From Mnemiopsis leidyi (Eukaryota), in assembly GCA_048537945.1 (NCBI GenBank), contig CM108483.1:9850715-9914714 (forward strand): a DNA stretch of 64,000 nt, given 5' to 3'. Each line of letters opens with the position of its first letter. Positions within the stretch are counted from its first letter, which is position 1. Both the position numbers and the translations under genes were made by a program. The notes below the pieces were generated by a model. It saw only the letters and a list, made by a program, of their open reading frames with translations. It searched no databases and was not told where the DNA came from. Of the stretch, positions 21,299 to 36,475 are shown in pieces.

Positions 21299-21495
21299 TT
21301 GATAGCTATGTAAGAAAGGAGAGAGAAAAAAGAGGACCAATCCCAAGCAACAGTTAGGAAACGAGGTAGGTCGACAAATTTTTTACAGAATATATTGTAA
21401 TACATAAGCGATATCTGAAAATAAAGGTGTGTAACTGGGGGACTAGTTTGATCGGCTATCAGAAACTTCAAAGATTTTATAAGAGTCAACTTCAA
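21299..21495 (-). CDS. Small conserved hydrophobic exon (…FCKKFVDLPRFLTVAWDWSSFFSLLSYIAIK|gtaagc), paralog of 39950-40085
   Basis: It is conserved at the protein level with the copy-B exon (…FCEKFVNLPRTLAVSWDWTSFFSLLIYIAIR|gtgagt). Both are followed by canonical donors. Confidence 0.5.
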
Positions 21496-21567
21496 GTTCT
21501 ACTGGCAAAATCCAAACTAAAATTTGACTGAACCTTTAATTTCAAATGTAATTTAATACTTGCCACT

Positions 21568-22296
21568 AACTATTTTTTCGGTAGAGAATCCAACTCGACA
21601 GGTACTATCGTCCAAGTCTCTCAAGAACCACCGTTTCTCTACCCCATCTTCATCGGTAACGCTTACAATCTTATTAAAAAGTCTCGCCTCTTTATTCCTT
21701 TCATCCACCTTAAGACACATGCCAGCCCGACAAAGCCTCAGAACACAACATACAAATTTGACGTAACTAAGGACCTCGTCAGAAACGAGATTCCCCAGAC
21801 TGTTGAGCCCGTTTTTGAGGAGACTTTCTGATGCGACCTTGTAAATCAGATCTCCTTCCAAAATATAGTCAGTTAGAAGCTGGATTTCGGGTCTACTGAT
21901 GACTTTGATTATGCTTTGATTCCAGATTTTTGCAGGTTCATCGGCATCCTCAATTATCGACATTTCATTATGCAGGATTTTCAGAATCTTCGAGCATCCA
22001 AAGAATACTTTTCTCCGTATTTCTTGCGACATTGATATATCATGTTTTTCTGTAAACTTTGTCAATATCTCGCTGAAAGCATCGTACTTCAAAGACGCAA
22101 GCATGTTGCTAAACCAAGGCGATTTACTATTTGTTTCAAGCCAAGAATTCATCACTTCTCTCTCTAAATGTCTCTTTTCTCTTTCTGGCTCAGAGATACA
22201 TGTTAAAGGTACAGGGCCTGCTAATTCTTGATCACTCATGCCGGAAGATTCAGACTCTGATTGGTGGATATTGCTGGATTCCCTTTCAGCACTTCG
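21568..22296 (-). CDS. Exon encoding the conserved C-terminal domain (…WFSNMLASLKYDAFSEILTKF…ILEGDLIYKVASESLLKNGLNSLGNLVSDEVLSYVKFVCCVLR…RVGFSTEKI|gttagt), paralog of the copy-B exon 40201-41298
   Basis: The ORF at 21553..22239 extends upstream in-frame to acceptor aatttacag near 22297. About 60% identity to the 40156..41304 ORF over ~150 aa. The donor position is conserved (TIDM|gtgagt in copy B). Confidence 0.6.
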
Positions 22297-22403
22297 CTCT
22301 GTAAATTTGTCGTTTGATCAATAAATTTATAACAACACTGAGATTTTTCATCGACTATGACAATACGAATTCTGATATATATATAGACATTTAGAAATGA
22401 ATG

Positions 22404-22628
22404 CTATAAGTAGCTTGTATTAATCCCACCGTTCGTCTCCGCAGATTTTCTCTGTGATTCAATAGTTTGGGTGAATCTGTCAATAGCCACCAGGATTTCA
22501 TCGATACACAGCTCAATTCCGATAAGTAATTCCTGGTCGCTTGTATAGTTCATAATACAGTCTATAGAACTCTCTACAATATAGGCTACTTCCTGTAATA
22601 TGACCCTCATCATCATGTTAGAAATCAA
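22404..22628 (-). CDS. Probable upstream exon of the same gene (…RVILQEVAYIVESSIDCIMNYTSDQELLIGIELCIDEILVAIDRFTQTIESQRKSAETNG)
   Basis: An ORF with a possible acceptor and donor. No homolog is recognised. Confidence 0.35.
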   Translation of the reverse strand: MISNMMMRVILQEVAYIVESSIDCIMNYTSDQELLIGIELCIDEILVAIDRFTQTIESQRKSAETNGGINTSYL

Positions 22629-23217
22629 TAAATTAGATTTTTACAGATATGAGATTTCGAGTAGTGAGATATGAAAGGACCTAGTAATGACCAGACCTGA
22701 TTTGTACCGAATCAGAATATTAGTCGCCTTAAGAAGTTGGGCTGGTAAGGATACAGTTTTTTAATTTAAATGCAATAGTTTTAATACATGCTGCACTTGC
22801 TAAAACCAGTCGCAACAGAGGCTACAGATCCGCAAGGGATTGAGTCCTGGCGTCTAAAAAATAACATCTAAGACACATCGACAGATTGCACATATAGTTG
22901 TACTTGTAGTTTTATTTATAGTAGTAAATTCCAATTCTAATAGTCAGGTTTACCTGAGAGAGGTTCAATAGGAACAGTCTGCTCTGACTCACGTCAGGGT
23001 TTAGCGATCTTGTAGAAATACACAATTGTGAAGATCGGCGAGCGATATCTTTACTTATATTTATTACCTGCAAAAGAAGAACATAAAAATGTTTTATTTC
23101 AATGTTGATTGTTCCATAAGCATAACTTTATGAGCGAATATTAGAAATAATTGAAATAGTATCGCACATTTTAGGTCAATGTTTCGGAGAATCAAGTTTA
23201 AATAGTTTTATTCTTAC

Positions 23218-23586
23218 TCAATGTAACATCACCTCTTGCTGAGCCTCAGAATCCAAACAGTTTATCGCCACTATCTTGTATTTGTTTTTTATTAGGTTTT
23301 CAATAGCCTTCGCTATATCATTGCAAGTCTCAAGGGCCCCCTGATTTGGTTCTTCCCCATCTTTAAATTCAAGTTGACCCAAACATACCAAGATCTCTTT
23401 ACGAGATGATACCAAATTGTTGACAGCAACACTGTGTTCCGCGGGGATTTCATGCCGATTTTTAGCAATTCTCAAATGACACACAGCATCTACACCTAAA
23501 TTGCTAGCTGCTGTAACCAATTTAGGCTTCTCAGGATCACTAAGGTGCGCGATTATTGTTCTGAGATTTTTCAGTGCTTCCGTCAT
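23218..23586 (-). CDS. Probable upstream exon (MTEALKNLRTIIAHLSDPEKPKLVTAASNLGVDAVCHLRIAKNRHEIPAEHSVAVNNLVSSRKEILVCLGQLEFKDGEEPNQGALETCNDIAKAIENLIKNKYKIVAINCLDSEAQQE|gtgatg), helical-bundle-like
   Basis: A 122-aa ORF with donor gag|gtgatg. No confident homology. Confidence 0.35.
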   Translation of the reverse strand: MTEALKNLRTIIAHLSDPEKPKLVTAASNLGVDAVCHLRIAKNRHEIPAEHSVAVNNLVSSRKEILVCLGQLEFKDGEEPNQGALETCNDIAKAIENLIKNKYKIVAINCLDSEAQQEVMLH

Positions 23587-23907
23587 ATTATTCGTTAGTT
23601 CCTTTACCTCCTCTCCTGAAACAAGAAATGTCGTGTCACTACTAGATAATTAATTTCCACATTTTTCCCTTAGCTACCTTAAAAGGTGCTAAATAGCGAA
23701 AAGTGAAATCCGATTTCAAAATTATTTGTATACATTCATTCTATATAATAATGTATAATGATGTATATAATATAATGTACTAACTTAACGCAGTGTTGTT
23801 GACCTCTCCTCGTGCGAGAGGTGCGTTAAAGAAGATGCCACAAGACGCGACCACAGCAGCCTCTAAATTGAGAAAAAGGTTCTCCTTGCAGCCACCAAAA
23901 ACATCCT

Positions 23908-26003
23908 CATTAGGTAGGTTCATAATGACAAAATATGCCGAAATAATTACAGTACAAAGCTAATCTGTTGCTCCCTAGGCCCAATAACCACAAAAAAAAA
24001 TTTTAGGCCCCAACTCCAACGGGAAACACCTTCACCGGCCACGCCCATTTTTTGGCATCAATTTTAACAGGTAAAAATCACTAAATCTGTGTTTTGGACA
24101 TGAAGGAGTTGATTTGAGGCTCTGGAAGTGCCATACTCAAATATAAACGGTAGGAAAAGGTTAACTTTAGTCAAACTCCCAAGTCTCTAGGATGTTGGGA
24201 AATTCGGGAAACGGGAACGCGGGGCGCGGCGACGCCCCGCGCAGCTTGCGCCTCACCTGAAGGTCCTAGAGTGATGAGACTTTCACTAAAATTAACCTTT
24301 TTCTACCATTTATATTCAAGTATGACACTTTCAAGTACCTCAGTTCACTCTTTCCTATCCAAAATGGCAATTTTACGAATTTTATGTGTTATTGTTTGAG
24401 ACATTGTACGCAAATTTGCTGTTATAAAATAGATAGTATATCATACAAAATTTACACTCATTAACTCTCATAAAAATCTAATAAAACTGTTTTAAATCCT
24501 TCTTGGTCTTGTTCCCGTACTTCCTCTGATGAGCTTCCACCACTTGTATGAGTTCTTGGAAGCTATCCTCATCCCTTGTGATCTTTGTGTTTAACCGGGT
24601 CACAAGTCCCAAAGCCCGCTCACAGGAATCGTTGATGGGAGAGAGGTTCTTCAGTGCTGTACCCAACGTCACATACTCGGGTTGCTCGTTCCAGTCAGGC
24701 TTGGAGAGGAAGTCAAGGGGGGTCTTCAGTAAGTCGAAGAGAAGAGTGGAACGTTCTCCGACAAAATCAACCAGCTCTGATTTCTGGCTGATGGAAGGTA
24801 GGGTAGGCTTCCTGATCTCGACCCATCCTGAGCTTAGTTGAGCAATCCTCTGGGCTATTAGAGTCCGGGTCTGCAGGGAGAGCTGGTCATCGAATAGCAC
24901 AAGGGGAATGAGGTCCTCAGTTAGGTACCAGGTGTGACGAAGAAGAGAGTTGATGAAGGAGAGGAGATCTTCTTTTTCTCTCTGATAGGAAGGAGGAATG
25001 ACAGGGAAGATGAAGGAATCCAGATCCAGGGAATCCCATGAGGTCTTTAGGACTTTAAAGAGTGTGACCTCGGGTGACTTGGTTTCACCGAACAGTTCTG
25101 TGAATGCTGCTCCGACCACGAGTTCGGAAATCAGAGCTGGTTGATTTTGTCGGAGAACGTTCCACTCTCCTCTTCGACTTACTGAAGACCCCCCTTGACT
25201 TCCTCTCCAAGCCTGACTGGAACGAGCAACCCGAGTATGTGACGTTGGGTACAGCACTGAAGAACCTCTCTCCCATCAACGATTCCTGTGAGCAGGCTTT
25301 GGGACTTGTGACCCGGTTAAACACAAAGATCACAAGGGATGAGGATAGCTTCCAAGAACTCATACAAGTGGTGGAAGCTCATCAGAGGAAGTACGGGAAC
25401 AAGACCAAGAAGGATTTAAAACAGTTTTATTAGATTTTTATGAGAGTTAATGAGTGTAAATTTTGTATGATATACTATCTATTTTATAACAGCAAATTTG
25501 CGTACAATGTCTCAAACAATAACACATAAAATTCGTATAATTGCCATTTTGGATAGGAAAGAGTGAACTGAGGTACTTGAAAGTGTCATACTTGAATATA
25601 AATGGTAGAAAAAGGTTAATTTTAGTGAAAGTCTCATCACTCTAGGACCTTCAGGTGAGGTGCAAGCTGCGCGGGGCGTCGCCGCGCCCCGCGTTCCCGT
25701 TTCCCGAATTTCCCAACATCCTAGAGACTTGGGAGTTTGACTAAAGTTAACCTTTTCCTACCGTTTATATTTGAGTATGGCACTTCCAGAGCCTCAAATC
25801 AACTCCTTCATGTCCAAAACACAGATTTAGTGATTTTTACCTGTTAAAATTGATGCCAAAAAATGGGCGTGGCCGGTGAAGGTGTTTCCCGTTGGAGTTG
25901 GGGCCTAAAATTTTTTTTGGTGGTTATTGGGCCTAGGGAGCAACAGATTAGCTTTGTACTGTAATTATTTCGGCATATTTTGTCATTATGAACCTACCTA
26001 ATC
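23908..26003. mobile_element. Large near-perfect palindrome: ~870-bp inverted arms (23908-~24780 and ~25130-26003) around a ~350-bp unique spacer. Possibly a long-TIR or foldback DNA transposon, or an inverted duplication.
   Basis: The sequence at 23925-24530 is the exact reverse complement of 25380-25990. The duplicated ORFs at 24548..24841 (+) and 25085..25363 (-) are identical for 76 aa. The arm tips are attaggtaggttcat. The flanks are …catcctc|arm and arm|cctcatc, a possible CCTC target-site duplication. Confidence 0.75.
24478..25130 (-). pseudogene. Transposase-derived coding fragment with a hAT-like C-terminal dimerisation domain (…DFLSKPDWNEQPEYVTLGTALKNLSPINDSCERALGLVTRLNTKITRDEDSFQELIQVVEAHQRKYGNKTKKDLKQFY*). 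A partial mirror copy lies on + at 25135-25433.
   Basis: The ORF at 24478..25257 spans the spacer and arm 1. The motif pattern (D/W…P.L..lA..L, S.ER.lg.v…R..L) resembles a hAT dimerisation domain. The first ~42 aa of that ORF lie antisense in arm 2 and are not coding. Confidence 0.4.
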
Positions 26004-26868
26004 CTCATCAATACAAACCGGCAGATCTTCAATCGGACGGGTCAAAGCGTTTATAGAGTCGTAGATCTTGTCAATACTACTTTGGATTATCACATCAATC
26101 ACATCCTTATCAAGGTCAGAAGAAAACTGTTGTCCCATGCGGGCTGATTGAGCTATGTGGATACCACCGCACTGGATCAAGTGCTCCGGAGGATCAGGAC
26201 ACACAGAGATAACTTCTGGGCGCAGTATTCCAGTCATAGCTGTGTTGTCTTTAACCTCCCCGCCTCCTCCGACGTCTGGTGAAATTGACGTTCGCCTACA
26301 TGAAACTGGTGGTAGTGCATTACGTTCAAGTTCAACAGTCGAATGTTCATATGGTAGTGAACACCTGAGTAGTTGTGTTGGTGAAGCTGACTGTGACACG
26401 GAGAAACCTGAACAGGGCGGACTTGCTGACGGGTAAATTGTAGACATTGCTGGACTTGATGATGATGAAGGTGGTGACATTGCCATGTCTGGACTTGAAA
26501 GAGACAAAGCCGGTGAGCCCAGACGACAATCATAAGCTATGGGAGGAGCTGCACACAGCTGCATCTTAATCCCTAGGTCTTTTCCCGTAAATTGTCTCGG
26601 CGTGACTGATTTGGAGGCTAAATGCGACGAGTTAGATTTGAATGAATCCGAGCTGGTCACAGTGCTGATAAAAGAGATAGTTCCAGCTGGCCCAGAATTA
26701 TGTCCGACTAACTGCGATGAAATGTCAACTTTTGATGATTCGTCTATAAACGGGTCATCTAGTTCTGAAGCCATGCCCATTCTGTGTAATGCGGCATCCC
26801 CAGCGTAAGCATCTTTGCTGCCCATTCCTAAAATAACCGGAGCTTCTGTCGATTTTGAAACCACTGAC
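25998..26868 (-). CDS. PARP4-like copy A: C-terminal exon with actin-like segment 2 (…VSKSTEAPVILGMGSKDAYAGDAALHRMGMASELDDPF…) and a Ser/Pro-rich tail. It ends at an in-frame TAG (25998-26000) that overlaps a possible donor ag|gtaggt.
   Basis: The ORF at 25998..26864 has acceptor tcctttcag. Its phase-2 junction with the previous exon (AVIR|S) is conserved with copy B (AVFR|S). Confidence 0.6.
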
Positions 26869-27048
26869 CTGAAAGGAGTTTATATATTCATAAGTTCAAA
26901 TCAATGGAAAAATGTGCATCGAAGAAAAATGATGTTTCATTGGCGAAAGGCCTATTTGGTTGTTTTTTTCAGAGCTTTGAACATCAGTTTACGCTGAGCA
27001 CAGATTTTGAATTAATTGTACATTGCTACTAGCGTTATATGAACAAAC

Positions 27049-27263
27049 CTAATAACTGCTCGTGGAGCGTCATCTCCCACAAAACCTCCCTTTATTATGT
27101 ACGATCCTAGATCTACAACCAGAGTAGAGGTGTCATCATCTTCTTCCTCAGATGAGGAGTCTGCTCTAGATTCATCACTATCAGAGGATTCAGAAACCGT
27201 AAGATCAGCAAATGTTTCCTCTGAGTTTCCCGGGGGATGAACATGCCTTTTCGTTTCTATCGC
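27049..27263 (-). CDS. PARP4-like copy A: acidic Ser/Asp/Glu stretch plus the actin N-terminal motif (…[46 protein letters not shown])
   Basis: Acceptor cacag|GCG and donor ag|gtttgt. [23 protein letters not shown] is similar to actin [24 protein letters not shown]. Confidence 0.7.
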
Positions 27264-27376
27264 CTGTGAAGTATTCACTACTTTAAAATGCACAGCTGAT
27301 AAAAATCAACGAAGAAAACCACCAACATACTGTTTAATCAGATTTGAAGAAGCCAGTAAAATTCTAAAACCTTAAC

Positions 27377-27580
27377 ATGAAGTTTCGGAACATCCGTGTA
27401 TGCGACATAAGGAAGACTATCTTCCTGCATCTCAGACAAGAGAGTCTCAATATCAACTGTTTTTTGGATAATCTCGTCTTTCTCTCGTTCTTCAACAGCA
27501 ACAAAGCTGGTAAAGGGAGATATCACTGAGTGTTCCAGGGACAACGATATAATTTCCTCTTTTCTCTTTCTCTGCTGACT
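27377..27580 (-). CDS. PARP4-like copy A exon (SQQRKRKEEIISLSLEHSVISPFTSFVAVEEREKDEIIQKTVDIETLLSEMQEDSLPYVAYTDVPKLH)
   Basis: Acceptor tttttcag and donor cat|gttaag. The paralog is the 44202..44474 ORF. Confidence 0.7.
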
Positions 27581-27711
27581 CTGAAAAAAGTGCTTTTATA
27601 AAATCTTAAAATTTGATTTCGACATGGAGTCAATACACAGCCTTGTGCTCTTACATCAGCGTAAAATAAATAATACGGGATGGAAATTGTGCCGGGAACT
27701 AAAAATTATAC

Positions 27712-27797
27712 CTCGTGTAGCCTTTGATCTTCACTCATTACCCCACTCACATAGTCTTCTATCATAGCTCTAGCAGTGAGCTTGTGTATCACACTTC
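27712..27797 (-). CDS. PARP4-like copy A exon (G-SVIHKLTARAMIEDYVSGVMSEDQRLHE)
   Basis: Acceptor ttttggcag and donor gag|gtataa. Confidence 0.55.
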
Positions 27798-27896
27798 CTG
27801 CCAAAAACCTTCATGTTAATGAACAATTTCATTGTTGAATACCCCTAATTACTTTAGTAAGTGGTTAAAAGGGCTGGAGTATAAAAAACTACCTAC

Positions 27897-27986
27897 CTTG
27901 CTTAACGTTGAGTTCCTCAACACTGACTAGAGTATCCAAGAACTGATCCCCGAGATGAGCTAAAAGGGATGCAGATCTGCAGTGTG
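27897..27986 (-). CDS. PARP4-like copy A exon (IVYGYVPHCRSASLLAHLGDQFLDTLVSVEELNVKQ-)
   Basis: Acceptor gctcag and donor g|gtaggt. The paralog lies inside the 44796..45023 ORF. Confidence 0.6.
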
Positions 27987-28163
27987 GAACATACCCGTAT
28001 ACTATCTGAGCATCAAGTTTGTGAGGTGTTTTGAGTTTCTCAAGTCTGATTTTACTATCTGAAAATCAAGTCACAGATAGTAAAATCAGACTCAGAACAC
28101 CTTATAAATGTACTTAATGCCCAGTTGTAACTAAGAAATTGACAGTAGTAAAAAAAATTAAAC

Positions 28164-28398
28164 CTGTCGATGTTTGTTGAAGAGGGAGGATATTATGAGA
28201 GGGGCTTGATTAACTCTGTCACCGCTGTTGTACATGTTCCATTTTAACTGTACTTCATCTAAAGCAGGCTCCTGACATTTGTCATACAGTTCATCGACCT
28301 TGTTCATCCATTTACCCTTTTCTTTGGGATTGAGAAAGAAGAAGGAACCACTTCCTTGTTTTGCTAACGATTGTAGATAATGCTTGTTTCCATCTTCT
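28164..28398 (-). CDS. PARP4-like copy A exon after the vWA domain (R-EDGNKHYLQSLAKQGSGSFFFLNPKEKGKWMNKVDELYDKCQEPALDEVQLKWNMYNSGDRVNQAPLIISSLFNKHRQ)
   Basis: The ORF at 28158..28460 has acceptor ttgcag|A and donor cag|gtttaa. It is 90% identical to copy B (44978..45325). Confidence 0.7.
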
Positions 28399-28521
28399 CT
28401 GCAATTATAAGTAGTTGGAAAAATGTGCTCTTGGGAAAAGAAAAGATTGTTTGAAAACAATTTTTCAGATGAGAGTAAATGAAATAATAATAAGATAAAA
28501 TAAAAATAATACTAAAATCAA

Positions 28522-28716
28522 CCTGGACAAAACTGAGAATATTCGGATATGAGAAGGAAGAAGTGTAGCTAGATTTAGTGACAGATCGGGTTGAGTTACC
28601 ACTCCGTCACTAACAAAAACCAAATTTACTATGTCCTGACTATCTTTGTAGAGCAAATATTCGTGGTATACTGAACTCCACAGCTCAGCGCAATATTCTT
28701 TCGGTTTCAGGATGTA
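28522..28716 (-). CDS. PARP4-like copy A: vWA domain C-terminal exon (YILKPKEYCAELWSSVYHEYLLYKDSQDIVNLVFVSDGVVTQPDLSLNLATLLPSHIRIFSVLS-)
   Basis: The ORF at 28465..28656 contains VFVSDGVVTQPD, the vWA xxTDG-like strand. Acceptor tcggtag and donor ccag|gttgat. Confidence 0.7.
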
Positions 28717-28871
28717 CTACCGAGAAAATTTTATCATAAATCGTCGACAAGAATTATCCAATTTCACGATTTGAAGAGAATACCGCAGGAATATAACTAG
28801 AGACACGGTTTTGATGGCCCAATTTACAAATTGATTCCACCGCGAAGCCTTAATTTCTATCAACAACAAAC

Positions 28872-29026
28872 CTTCAAAAAGTAAACAGCAAGGTCTTTGT
28901 TGGTTTTGTTTCCGACAAAATAATCAGAAAAACATTCGGTTCCATGTCCAACACCGACACTCGAAATATTGAAGAGACAGTTGATTGGTAATTGTTCTAT
29001 CAACAGCATCGCTTGTTGAACAGTAT
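28872..29026 (-). CDS. PARP4-like copy A: vWA domain middle exon (D-TVQQAMLLIEQLPINCLFNISSVGVGHGTECFSDYFVGNKTNKDLAVYFLK)
   Basis: Acceptor aacag|AT and donor aag|gtttgt. It is in phase with the exon ending at 33307, and NISSVG is typical of a vWA beta-strand. Confidence 0.6.
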
Positions 29027-29048
29027 CTGGACGTATAAGTTATAATTT

Positions 29049-29510
29049 TCCAAAAACCAATAAATTGGTTGCTCCCTTTGACCGGGGAGAGTCTCTTGGC
29101 TATTCCCTATTAGAATAAAGTGATATTCCGATTAAGCCCGGGGTAGCAATTAACGTTAACTCCGTCAATTTTCTCTCGGTCGCTTGCTTTTGAATTTTTA
29201 TGGCTACGCGTTGGTAGATTTTTTACCTCACCACTTTGCACTCTTTAATGTTTAATTTTAAAAGTATTTCTATCTTACAAATCTTCATCTGTCATCTACA
29301 ACTTCATCTAAAACTACAACTTACGAGCAAAGCCCGCTTAAATAATACTGGTAAATTTTTAAAAACTCAAAAGCAAGCGACCGAGAGAAAATTGACGGAG
29401 TTAACGTTAATTGCTACCCCGGGCTTAATCGGAATATCACTTTATTCTAATAGGGAATAGCCAAGAGACTCTCCCCGGTCAAAGGGAGCAACCAATTTAT
29501 TGGTTTTTGG
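29049..29510. mobile_element. Foldback or MITE-like element: ~150-bp perfect inverted arms (29049-29200 and 29360-29510) around an ~160-bp loop
   Basis: caaaaaccaataaattggttgctccctttgaccggggagagtctcttggc… is the reverse complement of …gccaagagactctccccggtcaaagggagcaaccaatttattggtttttgg. Confidence 0.8.
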
Positions 29511-30396
29511 AAAATTATATCATTCTTTTTTAGCGCAATCGGGAATATAGTTCAATAGATTGATCAACTTACGACAGTCATAAGACAAATTAAGAGATTT
29601 TGGCTTTTGAAACTATCAGCATCGAGATCACCGTGAAATTCTGTACTAAAATGATGGTCCACTTTTCCTTTTAGCTCAAAGTTGAAAATTCTCATTTTTG
29701 GGCAATTAAGGCCTATTAGGGCCAACTAAGGGGTGTTCTAACAGTTTTCGCACTTTAAAACTATCACCATCGGAATCGCCGTAAAATTTTGCACAAGAAT
29801 GATGGTCTAACTTTTTTTCTAGCCCAAAGTAAAAATTTCGTCTTTTTAAAATGTACTAACTTTAGGACGTCATAAATATATGATAACGTCATAAGACAAA
29901 GTTTTTACCCCACTTAAGTCAATTACTAGTTAACTGCCTTTAAAATCCGGGTTAATTCGTTGTTTTATCGTAAAAAATGTAGAAGTGACAACGATTTGAA
30001 AATGGAAAAATATCAAAAACGACGCAAAAATCCGTCTTTTTGGGAGGTGTCCATTTCATGACGTCATAAAATTATCAAAACAACACTTGAGAAAAATTTT
30101 ACGCCGCGTAATTTGTTAACTAGTATACTGAGTTCAAAATGTGCTGTGTTTCGTTGCTCTATCTTTTAAATTGTTGTCGGAAAATTAATTTGAAAATGGA
30201 AAATCAACGCCAAAATCAAAAAAATTACCAACTTAGGACAGTCATAAGACGATTTTAAAGGGCTAAATCAAAAATCGGGCTTCGCTAGTGCACAATTTAA
30301 TCGATTATCTTCAAAACGCCGTGCTTTTCAAGTCTCTATCTTTTTCATTGCGATCAGAAACTGACCCCCCGTTTTCCCGCCCCAAGCGTCTATCCC

Positions 30397-30427
<31 letters not shown>

Positions 30428-30430
<3 letters not shown>

Positions 30431-31110
30431 TGACCAAAACCCAAAACTTGGGTGTATGTGACCGCTTTTTAAAGACCCTCGATTAAATCGCTATCAAAAG
30501 TATCGCAGCTTAATAAACAACGTTATCTAAATGCGTTAAAAAGGTGTGATATCGAAAGTTCTGACCGCTATTTCTTAACTCGAAAACGGTCGCTTGCTTT
30601 GGCCGTCACGCCATTTGTCAGTTGTCAGGCTCATCAAATTGTTCGACAAAATTTTCAGCTCAAAGAAAGATTGTTAACGCTTTGTACTGAAGTTCGAATA
30701 TTCAGCATGAGGCAGTTATGAACTTGAAGTTGTTCTCTGAGCACTAAAGTGAAGCTAAAATTACAGGTCAACTTGCGGTAGGTCAATATGGACTGCCTAC
30801 AATTATTGAACTTCGGCATTTAACAGTTTAACTTAGATATAAGCAGTATTCCAATAGATTTGAAAGAAATACTCTTTAAAAATGGGAAGGTTTTCATAAT
30901 TTGATGAGCCTGACAACTGACATTAATGGCGTGACGGCCAAAGCAAGCGACCGTTTTCGAGTTAAGAAATAGCGGTCAGAACTTTCGATATCACACCTTT
31001 TTAACGCATTTAGATAACGTTGTTTATTAAGCTGCGATACTTTTGATAGCGATTTAATCGAGGGTCTTTAAAAAGCGGTCACATACACCCAAGTTTTGGG
31101 TTTTGGTCAA
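30428..31110. mobile_element. Second foldback element: ~220-bp inverted arms (30428-30650 and 30890-31110), preceded by an (AT)n tract
   Basis: aaattgaccaaaacccaaaacttgggtgtatgtgaccgc… is the reverse complement of …gcggtcacatacacccaagttttgggttttggtcaattt. Confidence 0.8.
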
Positions 31111-31299
31111 TTTATATCACATCTTTTGGTTTAAGAATGGCCGCTATACGTGCAATAACTGATAGAAGCCTGGTTTAGAACTTTGGATTTGGTGGGATGA
31201 TTGAAGCTGATGTGAAAAGGCATTAAGACAAAGCGATTATCTTTCGACCCATTGCCTTAGAGTTAGTTTAAAATGCATCCTTTAACCTGCTAGGAAGGA

Positions 31300-32260
31300 A
31301 CTTTTAAAAAGTCGATTTTCTCAATTATTAAATATTGCAAAATTTTCAAAATTCACAAACTTTTTCTTCTAATGATGACGTCATAGGGGCGTGGCCTTTT
31401 AATATTTTGAAATGAAACCTAGCCTAAAGCACGCCCCAAACAATTATCTTTTAGACCCTAGGTCGTTTTAAGCTCAATTATGTATCGTTCTTTCGTTATA
31501 AGTTGCACAAAATTGCAGACATTTCACGTGATTTTTAGTTAAAAACGTTTATCTTCATCCGCAATTATCTCGATAATGAAACAAGATAATCGACTTTTGG
31601 AAGACAGCATTCGACAGTAGAAACGATTATCTTTCGTTATCATGGTCTTCGTTTTCACTCAATCTGCATCTTAAAACAATAAAATGAACTTTGAAAAATT
31701 TGGTTTTTGAATTTTCGATAATGAAATTTTTCTAAAAATGATGACGTCATAGGGGTGTTGCCTTTTAACATTTTGAAATGAGACCGAGCCTAAAGCACGC
31801 CCCAAACGATTATCTTTTAGACCCTAGGTCGTTTTAAGCTCAATTATGTATGGTTCTTTCGTTATAAGTTGCACAAAATTGCAGACATTTCACGTGATTT
31901 TTAGTAAAAAACGCTTATCTTCATCCGCGATTATCTCGATAATGGAACAAGATAATCGACTTTTGGACGGCAGCATCTGAAAGTAGAAACGATTATCTTT
32001 CCGCATTACGATCTTCGATTTTTGCTCAGATTGCATCTTAAACCAATAAAATTAATTCTAAAAAATTTGGTTTTTGAATATTCGATGATGAAATTTTTCT
32101 AGAAATGATGACGTCATAAGGGCGTAGCCTTTCAATATTTTGAAACGAGACCTAGCCTAAAGTACGCCCCAAACGATTATCTTTAAGACCCTAGGTCGTT
32201 TTAAACCCAACTATGTATGGTTCTCTCGTTATAAGTTGCACAAAATGGCAGAGTTTGGCG
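31300..32260. repeat. Tandem satellite: ~410-bp unit x ~2.3, each unit carrying a tgatgacgtcata (CRE-like TGACGTCA) palindrome. Related gacgtcataa motifs occur at 29860-30075.
   Basis: Units start near 31325, 31735 and 32100 (…aatgatgacgtcataggggcgtggccttttaatattttgaaatga…cctaaagcacgccccaaac…). Confidence 0.8.
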
Positions 32261-32487
32261 TCTATACCCCTATATATATATATATATATACATACATATA
32301 TCACACGACAATTTGTTTGAAAATGGGGGTTCCAGAAACCCCCCTTCCCGATACCTGTTGACCTTCAAATTTTTTTTGCCATTGGTTTGGACAACTTCTA
32401 GTAGATTTGTAAAGTTTCAAGTTTCAATCTCTATTTTAACATAGTTTTCAAGACACCTGAACATGGCCATTTTTGCCAAATCGTACT

Positions 32488-32709
32488 AATTTTGTATAAC
32501 AGCGCTGGCAAGTTTTTGAACAAAACTTCGATTACTTCTATGTTACATGTTACCACTAACGGAGGCGTTTGGCCTCGGACCGCTGCCTTCGGCAGCGGCC
32601 CTCGGCCAGTTTGAGGGTAGGCTAACAGCCTCAGGCCGCTGCCTTCGGCAGCGGCCTTCGGCCGGTTTGGTGGAAGAAGAAGAAAAAACCGGTCGCGCTT
32701 GCCAGCGCT

Positions 32710-32712
<3 letters not shown>
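32488..32712. mobile_element. MITE-like element with TIRs (taacagcgctggcaagtttttgaac … ccggtcgcgcttgccagcgctgtga) and internal GC palindromes (gccgctgccttcggcagcggcc x2). A second copy lies at 32960-33190.
   Basis: The inverted agcgctggcaag / cttgccagcgct termini are present in both copies. Confidence 0.55.

Positions 32713-32780
<68 letters not shown>
32712..32780. repeat. (TA)n microsatellite (~34 units). Other (TA)n or (AT)n tracts lie at 30400-30428 and 32268-32300.
   Basis: atatatat… seen directly. Confidence 0.95.
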
Positions 32781-32781
<1 letters not shown>

Positions 32782-33306
32782 TCAGACGAAAATTACTGAA
32801 AAAATGCATTTTTTAAGGCGTTACTGCAGACGCACCTTAAGAGATAGAGACTTGAAATTTTCAGGATCACCTAGATACATACTCAAGACAAAAACTGCAA
32901 ATTTTCAAGCTTCTAAGTAATCGGGAAAGTGGTTTTCTGGATAGCCGAGTTTTGAGTTTTACGTAATCGTGTATAATAGCGCTGGCAAGTTTTTCAACTT
33001 TCGTTGAAAACTTTTTCCGAGAGGGGCGCTTGTTTGGCCGAGTCGTCGGGGGCCTTCGGCCCCCTCCTCCGGTAACGGGCCTGCGTCGGGGCCTTCGGCC
33101 CCTCCTTGGCCTAGGCAAAGGGGGCTTTGTTGGGCCCTGGCAAGTGCGGCGGAAGTTTTTTTCCCCGGTCGCGCTTGCCAGCGCTATAATTGACAAAATC
33201 GCATAGTCATATTCTCAAGACATACTTTCCATGCTCTTCTTTTCCAATTTGACGCAACTTGACATCAAGATTTACAAATAGTGGGATGATATAATTTGGA
33301 GCGTAC

Positions 33307-33544
33307 CTTTCCACTTAGACTCCATAGTCTTAGAACAGTCAACAAGAATCTTAACTCTGTTTATGTTTCCAACGGAGTTAACAGAAATGTCAGGATAAAA
33401 AGTAAGCATGGCAGCCTCCGTTTTTCCGCTCTTTTCTACCCACATTCTAGGTCGATTAACCTCGGACACAGAAATTCGAAGCTCAAAGTCCTGGTGGGGC
33501 TCCAAGACTCCTTCCCATTTGACCATAGCCAACGTGTCTGTCAT
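33307..33544 (-). CDS. PARP4-like copy A: end of the VIT domain and start of the vWA domain with a MIDAS-like motif (…RPRMWVEKSGKTEAAMLTFYPD…NRVKILVDCSKTMESKWK-G)
   Basis: The ORF at 33272..33544 has acceptor ttatttcag|ATG and donor aag|gtacgc. KILVDCSKT fits the vWA DxSxS/T consensus. Confidence 0.75.
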
Positions 33545-33678
33545 CTGAAATAATATTGCATGTTTGAAACAGGCGATTTATTTTGTACCTTAGTCCATAC
33601 TTTTCAACACACAAGTTAGCCCAAGTGCGAATACGAAATTGGCAATCAGAATAGGAGATCTAAGAATTCGATAATAGT

Positions 33679-33857
33679 ATCTATCACCTTGACGTTGAGA
33701 GAGTGTGTGTAGGAGAAGATGTTGAGGATTTTGAAAGGCATGGTTATGTTAGCTGAGATGTTGACCACTGTCCCAGATGACGTCACTAAATCAGTCTCGG
33801 TTGTCAGTTGTGTCATTTTATCTACTCCGGTACTGTTGCTGCTAAGCAAACTTGGAA
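33679..33857 (-). CDS. PARP4-like copy A: VIT domain exon (…PSLLSSNSTGVDKMTQLTTETDLVTSSGTVVNISANITMPFKILNIFSYTHSLNVK)
   Basis: The ORF at 33646..33849 has acceptor ttgttcag and donor aag|gtgata. Confidence 0.65.
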
Positions 33858-33990
33858 CTGAACAAAAGAAAAATCATCCAAACAAATCAGATCATATCAG
33901 CTAAATTTTGATTTAGAAATTAAATGATCTTTTTTATGGCAAATACTTTTAGAAGATTCCAAACCAGTAAGAAATCAAGATCAAACATAC

Positions 33991-34102
33991 CAGTAAACAG
34001 AATGTCGTTGTCTTGAACAGTGAGTTCGGTGACGTATATTATCTTGATATGAACAATGACGTTTCCAGCAGGAATATTTCCAAGAGATAAGGAGAACAGA
34101 TC
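33991..34102 (-). CDS. PARP4-like copy A: VIT exon (DLFSLSLGNIPAGNVIVHIKIIYVTELTVQDNDILFT-)
   Basis: Acceptor caatag and donor ctg|gtatgt. Confidence 0.6.
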
Positions 34103-34256
34103 CTATTGAAAAAATTACCTCAAAAAGACGATATTGCACAAATAGTATAAAATCAAACGACTAATCAAATATTGGAGCTTAAAGGAATTTCAGCCAACAC
34201 TAGATTAATGTAACAAGTCAACTAATTTTAATGAAAAAAAAATTCTCTAGTGTTAC

Positions 34257-34390
34257 CGGTTCTTCCTGCTCCATCAGATATGCCCCATGACCGGCCGCCA
34301 CTGCTTGTCTGTACTCTCTTCTTGCTTCTTCTTTCTTCTTCAGCTGTCCCACGATGTGTTTATCTCCAATGTAGGCTTCAAATCCGCTCA
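34257..34390 (-). CDS. PARP4-like copy A: VIT exon (V-SGFEAYIGDKHIVGQLKKKEEARREYRQAVAAGHGAYLMEQEEP)
   Basis: The ORF at 34218..34439 has donor ccg|gtaaca. KKEEARREYRQAVAAGHGAYL resembles the ITIH/VIT consensus (KEKEKAQKQYEKAVSQGKTAGL). Confidence 0.7.
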
Positions 34391-34511
34391 CTAGATGGTG
34401 TACACGCCATTTGCGAGGAAGAAAGAAAAAAATGTGCAATGAAATTGAATTTTTTGGTTCTAAATGGACGGATTGTCAAAAATTTAAACAACTATTGTAA
34501 CTAGTAACTAC

Positions 34512-34600
34512 CTGCACATCCATCACTCAAGGGAAAAACGAACTTTGCCTCCCGTTCTACATTGCAGTCACTGTGATACGAGTGAAGAACAATAACCTGG
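34512..34600 (-). CDS. PARP4-like copy A: start of the VIT domain (GQVIVLHSYHSDCNVEREAKFVFPLSDGCA-)
   Basis: Acceptor tttcag and donor cag|gtag. Confidence 0.55.
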
Positions 34601-34849
34601 CCTGAAAATTTCAAAAATTGTAGTTTGGTGGTTTTATTTTTTAACGGGAGCCACTTCCCGGCCAGCTACCTGCTACATTTGAGGAGGAAAAGTGATTACA
34701 TACTTATAATACATATCCAATCATCACTAATTCCCCGAACTACAAACTAGAAAATTTTAAAAAGCATCGCCCATCAACTTGACAGCATCAATTCTTTTGT
34801 TAAACTGGTGGCCCGATGAAAATTCCTCACATTCCTACTTAGTACTTAC

Positions 34850-35016
34850 CGACCATATCAGTGATGTTGGCGACTACATTGACCGTAGAGAGAGGAACTG
34901 GACTACCCTGAACTACAAGACCGATATCTACAGATTTGACGACAGTTCCATCCAGTATGTCATCAATGTCTAGAGCAGCAATTTCCTTGTTTTCACCATC
35001 GTCAAATTCCTTCTCC
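34850..35016 (-). CDS. PARP4-like copy A: linker exon (EKEFDDGENKEIAALDIDDILDGTVVKSVDIGLVVQGSPVPLSTVNVVANITDMV-)
   Basis: Acceptor gaattcag and donor g|gtaagt. Confidence 0.55.
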
Positions 35017-35160
35017 TGAATTCGATTTAGATTTGAGGCGTATGAAATACGTGCTTATCTTTATAAATGCGATGTGACATGGTGTCATTGAGAATATGGA
35101 TTGTGGGTGCATGTCTTCAACAAACAAAGAAAGGATCAATAACTCTTGAATCAGTTTCTA

Positions 35161-35348
35161 CCTTTTCGTTAGAATAAGATGTTTCAACAGGGGGGTATAA
35201 AAAGTTGGGATCAGGTATCACTCCAAACTCTATCAGTCCGATAATTTTGATACGATTCGTGTCGAAGATGCAGAATTCTCGGAAGTCAAAACACGACAAA
35301 TCATCTTCAGAACGAGTTGTTGAAACCACGGAATCATACCTGTAGAGA
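35161..35348 (-). CDS. PARP4: PARP4-like copy A: PARP catalytic domain C-terminal exon with the catalytic Glu (G-YDSVVSTTRSEDDLSCFDFREFCIFDTNRIKIIGLIEFGVIPDPNFLYPPVETSYSNEK)
   Basis: The ORF at 35117..35329. APPTGYDSV…DD…FDFREFCIF…IKIIGLIEF is similar to human PARP4 APPGYDSVHGV…DFEDDEFVVYKTNQVKMKYIIKF. Confidence 0.8.
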
Positions 35349-35446
35349 AATTGGGAAATTTAGAATTATAAAATGTGGAAGTAGCGCAGCAAAGAACTCT
35401 GTAGGGCTTTCAAAGATTATCAAAACTCTTTTCTAATGTAACCTAC

Positions 35447-35579
35447 CCAGTAGGAGGAGCAGATATACCCTGAAGTTCCTTGGAAGTAGCGTACTGGTTT
35501 CCTGCAACTACTTCACAGACTACTAGGAACATAGTCCCTCTGGGGGAAGTTTCACTGGGGTGCAAGTATCTGATACTGT
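35447..35579 (-). CDS. PARP4: PARP4-like copy A: PARP catalytic exon (-DSIRYLHPSETSPRGTMFLVVCEVVAGNQYATSKELQGISAPPTG-)
   Basis: Acceptor ttttcag and donor gg|gtaggt. Similar to PARP4 YSHPGETDGTRLLLICDVALGKC. Confidence 0.75.
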
Positions 35580-35706
35580 CCCTGAAAATACTCAAGGTAT
35601 GATACGCTGTTAAGTTTTTACAAGCACGTGGGTAATAAGAGCTTTCTGCCTAGAATAAAGCAAGTTTCATTCGATAAGAAGCACTAACAAAGCATTTTAG
35701 ACTTAC

Positions 35707-35783
35707 ATTGGATTTTCTGAGAAGTAGATTCCTCGACCCAGACGACCATGATCACGTCTTATGATACCAAGTTCATTTTCAAC
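35707..35783 (-). CDS. PARP4: PARP4-like copy A: PARP catalytic exon with the Tyr motif (VENELGIIRRDHGRLGRGIYFSENPM)
   Basis: Acceptor tttttttag and donor aat|gtaagt. GRGIYFSE resembles PARP GSGIYFSD. Confidence 0.75.
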
Positions 35784-35890
35784 CTAAAAAAATGATTGGG
35801 AATGTCAAAATAAATTCGCCATAAAAACAGACCTCGTGAATTCATCAAGCATGCCAAAATCAAATCTCGCAAAGTCTGTAAACAACCTAC

Positions 35891-36053
35891 CTGCCAGGGT
35901 AAAACAAGACCCCGAGACAAAACACCCCACATATTGGAAGTGGCAGTGGCATGATAGAGAACTTTTTTAGGAGCAGAGGGGTACCGGACTTGCTGCATCA
36001 CGGAAGAGGGGTGTTCCAAAGAGTAGTACATGGTCGGATAACCGCTGTCTTCT
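35891..36053 (-). CDS. PARP4: PARP4-like copy A: PARP catalytic exon with the His motif (…EDSGYPTMYYSLEHPSSVMQQVRYPSAPKKVLYHATATSNMWGVLSRGLVLPWQ)
   Basis: The ORF at 35759..36085 has acceptor atttacag and donor cag|gtaggt. VLYHATATSNMWGVLSRGL resembles LLHGSPVQNIVGILCRGL. Confidence 0.75.
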
Positions 36054-36189
36054 CTGTAAATGTTGATAAATTCAAGAACTGGCAATTTCAGATTGTGAAA
36101 TAATTGTTATCTCACGACTCACGTAGATCAGATTTAAATGAAATGCTGTTGTTATTAATAGTTAATTGAAAACCTTTATGTGACTAGAC

Positions 36190-36378
36190 TTACTCAATGA
36201 TTTTTATAGCTGACTGAACTTCTTTTCTTGAAATTGGCGCCAGACTAATTTTACAACCCAATGCACGATAAATATCCTCAGCTGTCGATATTCCTAGATA
36301 TTTTATCATTTTCATGATATGAAGGATAGCGATAAAGAATGCAACAATGCCCGCAGGACTAAAGGATACCAATTCCAT
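36190..36378 (-). CDS. PARP4-like copy A: PARP regulatory or catalytic N-terminal exon (approximate)
   Basis: The ORF at 36190..36378 is conserved in copy B. Exact splice sites were not resolved. Confidence 0.45.
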   Translation of the reverse strand: MELVSFSPAGIVAFFIAILHIMKMIKYLGISTAEDIYRALGCKISLAPISRKEVQSAIKIIE

Positions 36379-36475
36379 ACAAACTCAAATAGCAAAAAGA
36401 CAGTTAAGCTAACTGAATAGTTCATTGTTGTGAAAGTAACCTTGAGAATAGTTCATTGTTGTGAAAGTAACCTTG

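What the first reader, a model, noticed from the sequence alone, without database searches (positions are those of the whole stretch)
23908..26003. A 2.1 kb palindrome with a hAT-like transposase fragment, placed exactly at the stop codon and donor site of the copy-A tail exon
The two arms of ~870 bp are essentially identical reverse complements, including a duplicated 3' coding piece (KSELVDFVGERSTLLFDLLKTPLDFLSKPDWNEQPEYVTLGTALKNLSPINDSCERALGLVTRLNTKITRDEDSFQELIQVVEAHQRKYGNKTKKDLKQFY*).
The unique ~350-bp spacer continues that ORF upstream.
The fragment has the motif pattern of a hAT-family dimerisation domain.
The arm terminus (attaggtaggttcat) abuts …IDED-TAG of exon 25998-26868.
The flanks show a possible 4-bp TSD (CCTC).
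The structure could be a long-TIR DNA transposon or foldback carrying a captured or decayed transposase. It could be a recent inverted duplication that truncated copy A. It could also be an assembly artefact. Perfect palindromes of this size are hotspots for rearrangement.
Basis: partly seen in the sequence, partly recalled or inferred. Interest (0 to 1): 0.65.

Follow-up and report, generated by a model that had tools for sequence, protein, structure and literature searches.

The report
Fold-back hAT-like transposon inside an exon
The 2.1 kb palindrome is a real, recently mobile but defective "cut-and-paste" transposon of a Hermes/hAT-like family that jumped into a protein-coding exon of a comb jelly (Mnemiopsis) gene and cut the reading frame short. 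It is an ordinary kind of event with a few unusual structural details.

Summary
Arms 23909-24784 and 25127-26002 are 876 nt long and 99.4% complementary, with a 342-nt spacer.

The true element is 23911-26000 (TAGGTAGG…CCTACCTA). It is flanked by a perfect 8-bp target-site duplication, ATCCTCAT, not the 4-bp CCTC. A 94%-identical contig (L006) holds the empty site with a single ATGAGGAT and an uninterrupted ORF. This proves insertion into a conserved coding exon. The TAG "stop" and the "donor" GTAGGT are the transposon tip itself.

Full-length relatives natively carry 600-800-bp TIRs. The window copy is a non-autonomous derivative. It lacks both catalytic Asp residues and the CxxH motif, has a 399-bp internal deletion, and carries about 306 bp of 3' coding sequence copied in inverted orientation next to the other TIR.

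The same fold-back junction appears in gene models at another Mnemiopsis leidyi locus, so the palindromic form itself transposed. Assembly artefact and local inverted duplication are rejected.

Interest is low to moderate.

The parts
23903..23910 (.). Left copy of the 8-bp target-site duplication, ATCCTCAT
   Evidence: Identical to 26001-26008. The empty-site contig L006 has one copy: the two flank alignments overlap by exactly 8 nt, L006 1112-1119.
23911..26000 (-). The whole non-autonomous fold-back transposon (2090 bp). Tips are TAGGTAGGTTCAT… / …ATGAACCTACCTA. The transposase remnant reads on the minus strand.
   Evidence: It is 99.5-99.7% identical to the parent-type copy L005.
23911..24477 (-). 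3' non-coding end, equal to the native long TIR (about 567 bp, from tip to stop codon). It carries blocks conserved across the family: tip TAGGnnGGTTCA, GGCCACGCCCA, ACAGGTAAAA, AAGGAG, TATAAA.
   Evidence: Alignment of 10 termini from 6 elements. Relatives have 600-800-bp TIRs that fill the whole non-coding ends.
24123..24333 (.). Internal 70-nt hairpin inside the TIR (24123-24192 / 24264-24333, GC-rich centre). It is mirrored at 25578-25788 in the other arm.
   Evidence: The same sub-hairpin is present in the TIRs of L002 and L008.
24478..25125 (-). Transposase remnant ORF (215 codons plus stop). It corresponds to residues 239-299 and 438-592 of full-length relative P0103. It retains the catalytic-Glu motif NDSCERA but lacks D1, D2 and CxxH.
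24939..24941 (-). Junction of a 399-bp internal deletion (L005 330-728 missing, with a 1-nt filler T at 24940)
   Evidence: BLAST against L005 and direct reading of the sequence.
24785..25126 (-). Unique 342-nt spacer (coding, ELVVGAAF…PSISQ). Position 25126 is a 1-nt filler at the fold-back junction.
   Evidence: Parent reads …CACATCCTT|GAACTCGTGG. Window reads …CTCTGATTTC-C-GAACTCGTGG.
25127..26000 (+). Second arm: the other TIR (25434-26000) plus an inverted extra copy of the last 306 bp of coding sequence (25128-25433, KSELVDF…KQFY*). GenBank annotates this as hypothetical protein G016426.
   Evidence: P0204 (KAL5250684.1) is identical to ORF 25104-25433.
26001..26008 (.). Right copy of the 8-bp TSD, ATCCTCAT
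26001..26864 (-). Upstream part of the interrupted host exon (…RPIEDLPVCIDED). The in-frame TAG that follows (25998-26000) is the transposon tip.
23783..23910 (-). Downstream part of the interrupted host exon (VFGGCKENLFLNLEAAVVASCGIFFNAPLARGEVNNTALS)
   Evidence: The exon is contiguous in P0205/L006, and the peptide is conserved in distant orthologs P0206-P0208.

Best explanation
Window 23911-26000 is a non-autonomous, internally deleted 'fold-back' derivative of a long-TIR, Hermes/hAT-like cut-and-paste DNA transposon of the ctenophore Mnemiopsis leidyi.

What is shown:
1. It inserted by transposition into a conserved coding exon of copy A of a tandemly duplicated VIT-domain gene. The insertion duplicated the 8-bp target ATCCTCAT, and the element's first three bases (TAG) now terminate the host ORF.
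2. Full-length relatives encode a transposase of about 600-750 aa with a DDE RNase-H fold, a CxxH motif and a large alpha-helical insertion domain. Its closest solved structure is Hermes.
3. These relatives natively carry 600-800-bp near-identical TIRs and 8-bp TSDs that fit nTnnnnAn.
4. The window copy keeps only the C-terminal third of the ORF, so it cannot move by itself.
5. The same fold-back junction occurs at a second locus.

What is inferred:
1. The element was mobilised in trans by a family transposase acting on its two identical ends.
2. The extra 306 bp of inverted coding sequence arose during double-strand-gap repair after an excision. A nascent strand that had copied one TIR re-annealed to the identical opposite TIR and continued inward from the wrong end. 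The two non-complementary nascent ends were then joined by end joining, leaving a 1-nt filler and no microhomology.
3. The insertion inactivates or truncates copy A, while copy B remains.
For: Structure and insertion:
- The IR has 876-nt arms at 99.4%.
- Empty site: L006 aligns to window 27120→26001 and 23910→22500. The two alignments overlap by 8 nt (ATGAGGAT), and the ORF is continuous.
- The peptide downstream of the insertion site is conserved in orthologs at 39-48% identity.

Family:
- 86 homologs of the fragment were found, including Mnemiopsis leidyi proteins on contigs of 14.6, 14.9, 15.6, 15.9, 20.9 and 21.5 Mb.
- P0002 and P0200 read through the identical fold-back junction (…AWRGSQGGSSVSRREEWNVLRQNQPALISELVVGAAF…) at another locus. 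P0200 comes from an older, independent gene set.
- The parent-type copy L005 is 99.5-99.7% identical and lacks both rearrangements.
- Full-length relatives L001, L008 and L009 have TIRs of about 790, 650 and 603 bp. Their TSDs are CTATACAA, TTACTCAT and GTGTATAT.
- All 4 TSDs and 2 half-sites have T at position 2 and A at position 7. The chance probability is about 8e-7. This is the Hermes target preference (PMC10368747).

Fold and motifs:
- The AF2 model of P0103 has pLDDT 85 and pTM 0.81.
- The Foldseek top 10 hits are all Hermes, E 2e-7 to 1e-4.
- D139, D204, C233xxH236 and E546 fall on the expected secondary-structure elements.

Age of the arms:
- Each arm carries its own derived substitutions relative to L005: 2 on the left arm and 3 on the right.
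Against: - No Pfam hAT model (PF05699, BED and others) matches the fragment or 13 relatives, even at E<=1-10. No PDB sequence hit was found. The hAT assignment therefore rests on fold, TSD and target pattern, not on sequence-family membership.
- Long, fully symmetric ends are atypical for hAT. In Hermes, symmetric RE/RE donors are inactive (PMC10368747).
- The tip TAGGT deviates at position 5 from the YARNG hAT tip consensus (the consensus is from memory).
- I could not obtain DNA of the other M. leidyi copies. Multi-locus presence of the fold-back junction therefore rests on annotated protein models.
- The origin mechanism (template switch plus end joining) is inferred from one junction only.
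- L006 is only 94% identical, so it may be an ortholog in a sister lineage rather than an allele.
Confidence: 0.88

Rival explanations
1. Assembly artefact: a chimeric fold-back long read or a mis-join created a palindrome that does not exist in the genome.
For: The window holds three other perfect or near-perfect palindromes (46961-47911, 30423-31117, 29041-29519). This could hint at a systematic artefact. No reads were available to check.
Against: - The palindrome is bounded exactly by transposon tips and a perfect 8-bp TSD, with a matching empty site.
- The arms differ at 5 positions, with derived states on both arms.
- The same junction peptide occurs in gene models at another locus and in an older independent protein set, P0002 and P0200.
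- Long TIRs are native to the family in an unrelated assembly.
Confidence: 0.02
2. A local inverted duplication (a non-transposon rearrangement) of host DNA that truncated copy A.
For: Inverted duplications with short unique spacers are typical products of fold-back repair. The internal junction has no microhomology and a 1-nt filler.
Against: - All 2090 bp are foreign to the host gene and absent from L006.
- The sequence belongs to a multi-copy transposase family.
- The outer boundaries are TIR tips plus a TSD.
Confidence: 0.02
3. The element belongs to another C/DxxH superfamily with long TIRs rather than to hAT. Candidates are a Foldback/Galileo-type P-superfamily element or a MULE.
For: - Long (0.6-0.8 kb) TIRs and palindromic derivatives are hallmarks of Galileo and of many MULEs (PMC4168063, PMC3310237).
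- No hAT Pfam domain and no BED finger were detected.
- P elements also make 8-bp TSDs.
Against: - No THAP, Tnp_P_element or MULE Pfam hits were found.
- Galileo makes 7-bp GTANTAC TSDs. MuDR typically makes 9-11-bp TSDs (from memory).
- Here four of four TSDs are 8 bp and fit the hAT pattern nTnnnnAn.
Confidence: 0.06
4. Alternative origin of the palindrome, with the same identity of the element. A break inside a full-length copy became hairpin-capped, or sister chromatids fused. Replication then produced a perfect palindrome, and a later asymmetric centre deletion left the 342-nt spacer.
For: - P0203 (a third locus) joins antisense-arm sequence (…SDFWLME) and sense sequence starting further upstream (RTLIAQ…PSISQKSELV…) on one strand. 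This implies a copy with longer arms or a different centre.
- Palindrome centres are known to be deletion-prone (general knowledge).
Against: - P0203 is a spliced gene model, so its structure is uncertain.
- In this family one arm's outer 567 bp is explained more simply as the native opposite TIR. Only 306 bp then needs to have been copied.
- L001 shows the mirror-image case, where the TIR extends into the 5' coding region. This fits recurrent TIR-guided template switching.
Confidence: 0.25

Closest known systems
hAT superfamily (Hermes, hobo, Ac, Tol2); closest solved structure Hermes transposase (PDB 8EDG, 4D1Q, 6DWZ, 2BW3)
   Same: - 8-bp TSD and target preference nTnnnnAn.
- Tips begin TAGG….
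- DDE RNase-H fold with a CxxH motif, a large all-alpha insertion domain and a C-terminal …S-x-E-R… helix that carries the catalytic Glu.
- Frequent internally deleted non-autonomous derivatives (Ds-like).
   Different: - No match to the Pfam hAT dimerisation, BED or other hAT models.
- The N-terminal region is helical, without an evident zinc finger.
- The TIRs are 600-800 bp and near-identical, instead of 10-25 bp tips with dissimilar subterminal ends. For Hermes, symmetric RE/RE donors are inactive (PMC10368747).
Galileo / Foldback-like elements (P superfamily, Drosophila)
   Same: - Very long TIRs and a palindromic overall architecture.
- Many defective copies, attributed to abortive gap repair and template switching.
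- Potential to promote rearrangements.
   Different: Galileo has a THAP-containing P-type transposase and 7-bp GTANTAC TSDs (PMC4168063). Here the fold is Hermes-like and the TSD is 8 bp nTnnnnAn.
Maize Ds / 'double Ds' and other rearranged Ac derivatives
   Same: - Non-autonomous hAT derivatives created by internal deletion and inverted re-joining of element parts, mobilised in trans.
- Insertions in exons whose termini carry splice-donor-like sequences (from memory).
   Different: - Double Ds is one Ds inserted into another. Here the inner junction is coding-to-coding, with a 1-nt filler, not a nested insertion.
- The two ends are identical.
MuDR/MULEs with long TIRs
   Same: Long TIRs of several hundred bp, possibly carrying regulatory sequence, and a CxxH motif.
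   Different: - TSD length (9-11 bp in MULEs, from memory).
- The Mutator-family structure ISCth4 is a clearly weaker match than Hermes.
- No MULE or SWIM Pfam hits.

Membership tests
hAT superfamily | 8-bp target-site duplication | tested here: met
   - Window: ATCCTCAT on both sides, single copy in the empty-site contig L006.
- Relatives: L001 CTATACAA, L008 TTACTCAT, L009 GTGTATAT.
hAT superfamily | Target preference 5'-nTnnnnAn-3' (Hermes; PMC10368747) | tested here: met
   Six of six sites (4 full TSDs plus the half-sites of L002 and L005) have T2 and A7. The chance probability is about 8e-7 at this base composition. The sample is small.
hAT superfamily | DDE RNase-H-fold transposase with a C(2)H motif and a large alpha-helical insertion domain; fold like Hermes | tested here: met
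   - Full-length relative P0103: AF2 pLDDT 85.
- D139, D204, C233xxH236 and E546 are present.
- The window copy itself retains only the segment after CxxH.
hAT superfamily | Pfam hAT C-terminal dimerisation domain (PF05699).
   hmmscan at E<=10 gave no hAT family for the 215-aa fragment, the 630-aa L001 composite, P0018, P0038 or 10 full-length representatives. A motif-level resemblance (S-C-E-R-A-L…) is visible by eye only.
hAT superfamily | N-terminal BED zinc finger | tested here: not met
   No zf-BED hit was found in 10 full-length (640-900 aa) representatives. The N-terminal sequences of P0095 and P0100 show no Cys/His cluster. The AF2 model covers only part of the N-terminus.
hAT superfamily | Short (about 10-25 bp) TIRs with tip consensus YARNG and dissimilar subterminal ends (from memory and PMC10368747) | tested here: not met
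   - The tips are TAGGG in L001, L002 and L008, which fits the consensus. They are TAGGT in the window and L009, where position 5 deviates.
- The TIRs are 600-800 bp at 96-99% identity, so the ends are symmetric.
Foldback/Galileo (P superfamily) | 7-bp TSD (GTANTAC) and a THAP-containing P-type transposase | tested here: not met
Kolobok | TTAA-specific 4-bp TSD (PMC9587614) | tested here: not met
   All the TSDs are 8 bp and none is TTAA.
MuDR/MULE | MULE transposase domain; 9-11-bp TSD (from memory) | tested here: not met
   No PF10551 or SWIM hit was found. The TSD is 8 bp. ISCth4 is a weaker structural match than Hermes.
Non-autonomous deletion derivative (Ds-like) | Intact ends but a transposase ORF lacking catalytic residues; a near-identical longer parent exists | tested here: met
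   - The window ORF aligns only to P0103 residues 239-299 and 438-592, so D1, D2 and CxxH are absent.
- L005 is 99.5-99.7% identical and retains the 399 bp and the upstream CRHHILELVV sequence.

The most novel reading that the evidence does not exclude
The family could be a deep, so far uncatalogued branch of Hermes-fold transposons. About 16,000 50%-identity clusters in public data match it, and none is recognised by Pfam. It has no BED finger and no recognisable hATC domain.

Unlike Hermes, it would work on fully symmetric 0.6-0.8-kb ends. A derivative carrying two identical ends, such as this one, could then still transpose.

Because this copy sits inside a transcribed exon, read-through RNA would fold into an 876-bp perfect hairpin. 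That hairpin could feed siRNA-based silencing of the family in an animal reported to lack canonical microRNA machinery.
Probability: 0.15. Interest if true: 0.6.

Novelty: new variant of a known kind. Interest (0 to 1): 0.3.

Why it matters
- For annotation: two 'hypothetical protein' genes (G016425 and G016426) and the apparent stop and splice donor of the neighbouring exon are all parts of one defective transposon. Copy A of the duplicated VIT-domain gene is interrupted, not naturally short. At least two other gene models (P0200, Roquin-like; P0053, GPCR-like) are chimeras with this repeat.
- For transposon biology: the locus shows, with an empty site, that a Hermes-fold family with very long symmetric TIRs has been active recently in a ctenophore. 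It also shows that a derivative carrying two identical ends moved. In Hermes itself, symmetric ends are inactive, so this is a testable contrast.
- For genome stability: 0.9-kb perfect inverted repeats are rearrangement-prone and are potential sources of double-stranded RNA.

Tried and rejected
1. Pfam on the fragment, on the composite full-length protein and on 12 relatives gave no hAT, P, MULE or any other transposase family.
2. Sequence and profile searches of the PDB gave only noise.
3. Look-ups of the DNA of the NCBI M. leidyi copies (P0001-P0003) and of the window's own 109-aa ORF found nothing on record. The other genomic copies could therefore not be inspected.
4. An exact scan of JGI metagenomes with the 19-nt tip gave one chance hit (L007) with no homology to the element.
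5. BLASTP of the peptide downstream of the insertion site against copy B showed no similarity. Conservation was shown through orthologs P0205-P0208 instead.
6. The first structure job failed and was repeated with a smaller alignment. The afdb50 fold library was unavailable.
7. A 6-bp TSD (TCCTCA, element TTAGG…CCTAA) was considered first. It was rejected because homologous tips in L001, L008 and L009 start at TAGG with unambiguous 8-bp TSDs, and L006 shows an 8-nt overlap.
8. Nested insertion ('double Ds'-like) was rejected as the origin of the palindrome, because the inner junction joins two internal coding positions, not a tip.
9. Fold-back priming on microhomology was considered. The junction shows no usable microhomology and has one extra nucleotide.
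10. Literature searches found no description of a long-TIR hAT family or of this element in Mnemiopsis.
Full report
**1. The observation**

The region holds one inverted repeat. The arms are 23909-24784 and 25127-26002, 876 nt each, with 5 mismatches (99.4%) and a 342-nt spacer. Nothing comparable arises by chance: the 19-nt tip occurs exactly twice in the window, against 0 expected.

A minus-strand ORF ends at 24478 and runs up through the spacer. Its last 101 codons (KSELVDF…KQFY*) recur on the plus strand at 25128-25433. The native frame stops at 25125 (ELVVGAAF…). The further 44 codons of the mechanical ORF are an out-of-frame reading of the other arm.

**2. Organism and annotation**

The plus-strand 109-aa ORF is identical to GenBank KAL5250684.1 (hypothetical protein G016426, Mnemiopsis leidyi). 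The neighbouring model G016425 is the minus-strand remnant. The window is therefore most likely a ctenophore chromosome, and the palindrome is currently annotated as two genes.

**3. True boundaries and proof of insertion**

Reading the flanks gives …aacATCCTCAT|TAGGTAGGTTCAT … ATGAACCTACCTA|ATCCTCATcaat. The repeat finder over-extends each arm by 2 nt, because the TSD begins and ends with the self-complementary AT.

Deleting 23911-26008 restores a minus-strand ORF: …PVCIDEDVFGGCKENLFLNLEAAVVASCGIFFNAPLARGEVNNTALS*.

A search with this reconstructed peptide found P0205, which is 94% identical over 100% of the query. Its contig L006 (Logan ERR13395280) aligns to window 27120→26001 and to 23910→22500. 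The two alignments overlap by exactly 8 nt on L006, at ATGAGGAT. This is an empty site with a single target copy.

More distant orthologs (39-48% identity) conserve the peptide downstream of the insertion point, as KEKLSLNLEACMVASCGIL…GEVDYYGLS. The element therefore sits inside a conserved coding exon.

The TAG after …IDED and the GTAGGT that looked like a splice donor are nucleotides 1-9 of the transposon. The exon is not a 'tail exon': further exons of copy A lie downstream (21.5-23.6 kb) and match copy B. The host gene carries a VIT domain and is tandemly duplicated.

**4. What the element is**

No Pfam family matches the fragment, a 630-aa composite from relative L001, or 12 other relatives. 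PDB sequence searches are also empty.

Homology searches nevertheless show a very large family:
- 86 relatives of the fragment;
- 121 relatives of an N-terminal half;
- about 16,000 50%-identity cluster representatives with a profile, 2,391 of them at E<=1e-30, with full length about 740-760 aa.

Full-length members show GQ(I/V)NFDG, GFDTTSSNTG, LACRHHIxEL and NDSxERA motifs.

An AlphaFold model of P0103 (592 aa, 33-sequence alignment) is confident, with pLDDT 85 and pTM 0.81. It places D139 on β1, D204 after β4, C233xxH236 after β5 and E546 on a C-terminal helix. An all-helical insertion lies between them.

Structure comparison points to Hermes:
- The Foldseek top ten PDB hits are all Hermes transposase (E 2e-7 to 1e-4, about 560 columns). 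The next best is ISCth4 at 2e-3.
- Retroviral integrase cores score about 11 (RNase-H core only), ISCth4 10.1, the P element 8.8 and RAG1 7.5.

**5. Family architecture from relatives**

Three near-full-length elements in an unrelated ENA assembly have the following features.

| Locus | Element coordinates | TIR length | TSD |
|---|---|---|---|
| L001 | 3452-7202 | about 790 bp | CTATACAA |
| L008 | 4212-7412 | about 650 bp | TTACTCAT |
| L009 | about 4107-7556 | 603 bp | GTGTATAT |

Their tips are TAGGGTGG, TAGGGCGG and TAGGTATG, and the TIRs are 96-99% identical. Half-sites add ATCCCTAT (L002) and ATATACAG (L005).

All six sites, including the window's ATCCTCAT, have T at position 2 and A at position 7. 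This is the Hermes preference nTnnnnAn (PMC10368747), with a chance probability of about 8e-7.

An alignment of ten termini shows conserved blocks: tip TAGGnnGGTTCA, GGCCACGCCCA, ACAGGTAAAA, AAGGAG and TATAAA. Each TIR also contains an internal 70-nt hairpin.

Long TIRs that fill the whole non-coding ends are therefore native to the family. In the window, about 567 bp of each arm (from tip to stop codon) is simply the TIR.

**6. How this copy differs from its parent**

L005, a 1974-nt metagenomic contig, is 99.5-99.7% identical to the window element. It retains two things the window copy lacks:
- 399 bp that are missing at window position 24940 (a 1-nt filler remains);
- the native sequence upstream of ELVV (…LACRHHILELVV…).

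In the window, that upstream part (5' UTR, N-terminal region, D1, D2, CxxH) is replaced. In its place lies an inverted copy of the last 306 bp of coding sequence, joined through a single extra C (25126) without microhomology.

The remnant aligns only to P0103 residues 239-299 and 438-592, so the copy is non-autonomous.

Relative to L005, the two arms carry 2 and 3 private substitutions respectively. They have diverged independently since the fold-back formed.

**7. Did the palindromic form itself move?**

P0002 (G003847, on a different 14.9-Mb contig) and P0200 (a 618-aa model from an older protein set, fused to a Roquin-like gene) read through the identical junction: …AWRGSQGGSSVSRREEWNVLRQNQPALISELVVGAAF…. 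They carry the ancestral state at one arm-specific site.

P0203 (G003216, a third contig) joins antisense-arm and sense sequences on one strand. This requires an inverted arrangement there too, possibly with longer arms.

I could not retrieve DNA for these loci. This step therefore rests on protein models.

**8. Mechanism**

Shown: insertion by a cut-and-paste enzyme that makes 8-bp staggered target cuts, and disruption of the host ORF by an in-frame TAG at the tip.

Inferred:
- The element was mobilised in trans by a family transposase acting on two identical ends.
- The origin was TIR-guided template switching during gap repair. A nascent strand that has copied one TIR can re-anneal to the identical opposite TIR and continue inward from the wrong end. 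The two nascent ends are then non-complementary and are sealed by end joining.

This fits the filler nucleotide, the absence of microhomology, and the mirror-image case in L001, where the TIR has been extended into the first ~50 codons. Abortive gap repair and template switching are the accepted source of defective copies in P and Galileo elements (PMC4168063).

A rival origin remains possible: a hairpin-capped break, then replication, then a centre deletion.

**9. Comparison with known systems**

The element works like a hAT element and its enzyme has the Hermes fold. It fails three sequence or architecture criteria of textbook hAT elements: Pfam hATC, the BED finger, and short asymmetric ends.

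For Hermes, symmetric RE/RE donors are inactive and end asymmetry is considered important (PMC10368747). Here symmetry is the rule.

The architecture resembles Galileo/Foldback and long-TIR MULEs. However, TSD length, target motif and fold argue against membership of those groups.

I found no paper describing this family or a long-TIR hAT lineage. I could not check Repbase.

**10. Verdict**

This is a real, precisely bounded, recently inserted defective transposon. The exon-boundary reading, the 4-bp TSD and the artefact and local-duplication alternatives are wrong.

As a biological object it is an ordinary transposable-element insertion. The unusual aspects are the Hermes-fold family that Pfam does not see, its symmetric long TIRs and the mobile fold-back derivative. 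These justify a modest score.

Noticed in passing
window 46961-47911; 30423-31117; 29041-29519: Three further near-perfect palindromes. Their arms are 406, 193 and 160 nt (99-100% complementary) and their spacers 139, 309 and 159 nt. They are unrelated in sequence to the hAT-like element. The first lies in copy B only and may have a 3-bp ACG duplication. They are probably other fold-back or MITE-type insertions. Four palindromes in 64 kb is striking.
   Followed up: partly
window ~21300-37764 (copy A) and ~39950-52880 (copy B): This is a tandem duplication of a large VIT-domain gene on the minus strand. The copies are 84-97% identical in many segments, but the exon hit by the transposon has diverged beyond nucleotide recognition. 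Exons of both copies contain actin-like N-terminal motifs (LVVDLGSY.IKGGF.GDDAPRAV).
   Followed up: partly
window 42774-43284: A 24-nt tandem repeat of 15 or more units lies inside the large copy-B exon. It encodes (GAAPPRAP)n and is absent from copy A.
   Followed up: no
window 31358-32388: Three tandem units of about 366 nt (91% and 63% identity to the reference unit), flanked by long (TA)n tracts at about 30400 and about 32720.
   Followed up: no
window 23911-24200 and 25711-26000; L001, L002, L008, L009 termini (alignment A3): The TIRs of all family members share blocks in a fixed order from the tip: GGCCACGCCCA (GC-box-like), ACAGGTAAAA, AAGGAG, then TATAAA about 230 nt in. These could be transposase-binding sites or inward-facing promoter elements present at both ends. 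If they are promoters, transcription would be convergent.
   Followed up: no
L001 3772-4235 vs 6594-7057: In this full-length relative the TIR extends into the first ~50 codons of the transposase ORF. The N-terminal peptide MLFQSK…RSSV is encoded at both ends. This is the mirror image of the window copy, where 3' coding sequence was added to the TIR.
   Followed up: partly
proteins P0200, P0053 (other loci, not in the window): Public gene models fuse fragments of this transposon to host genes: P0200 to a Roquin-like protein and P0053 to a 7TM receptor (PF00001). The repeat is contaminating protein sets.
   Followed up: no
window 25995-26000 (minus strand TAG|GTAGGT): On the host's coding strand the transposon tip reads AG|GTAGGT, a good splice-donor consensus. 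The far end reads …CCTACCTAATGAG|GAT, a possible acceptor. Splicing between them would still retain the in-frame TAG, so it would not rescue the ORF.
   Followed up: partly
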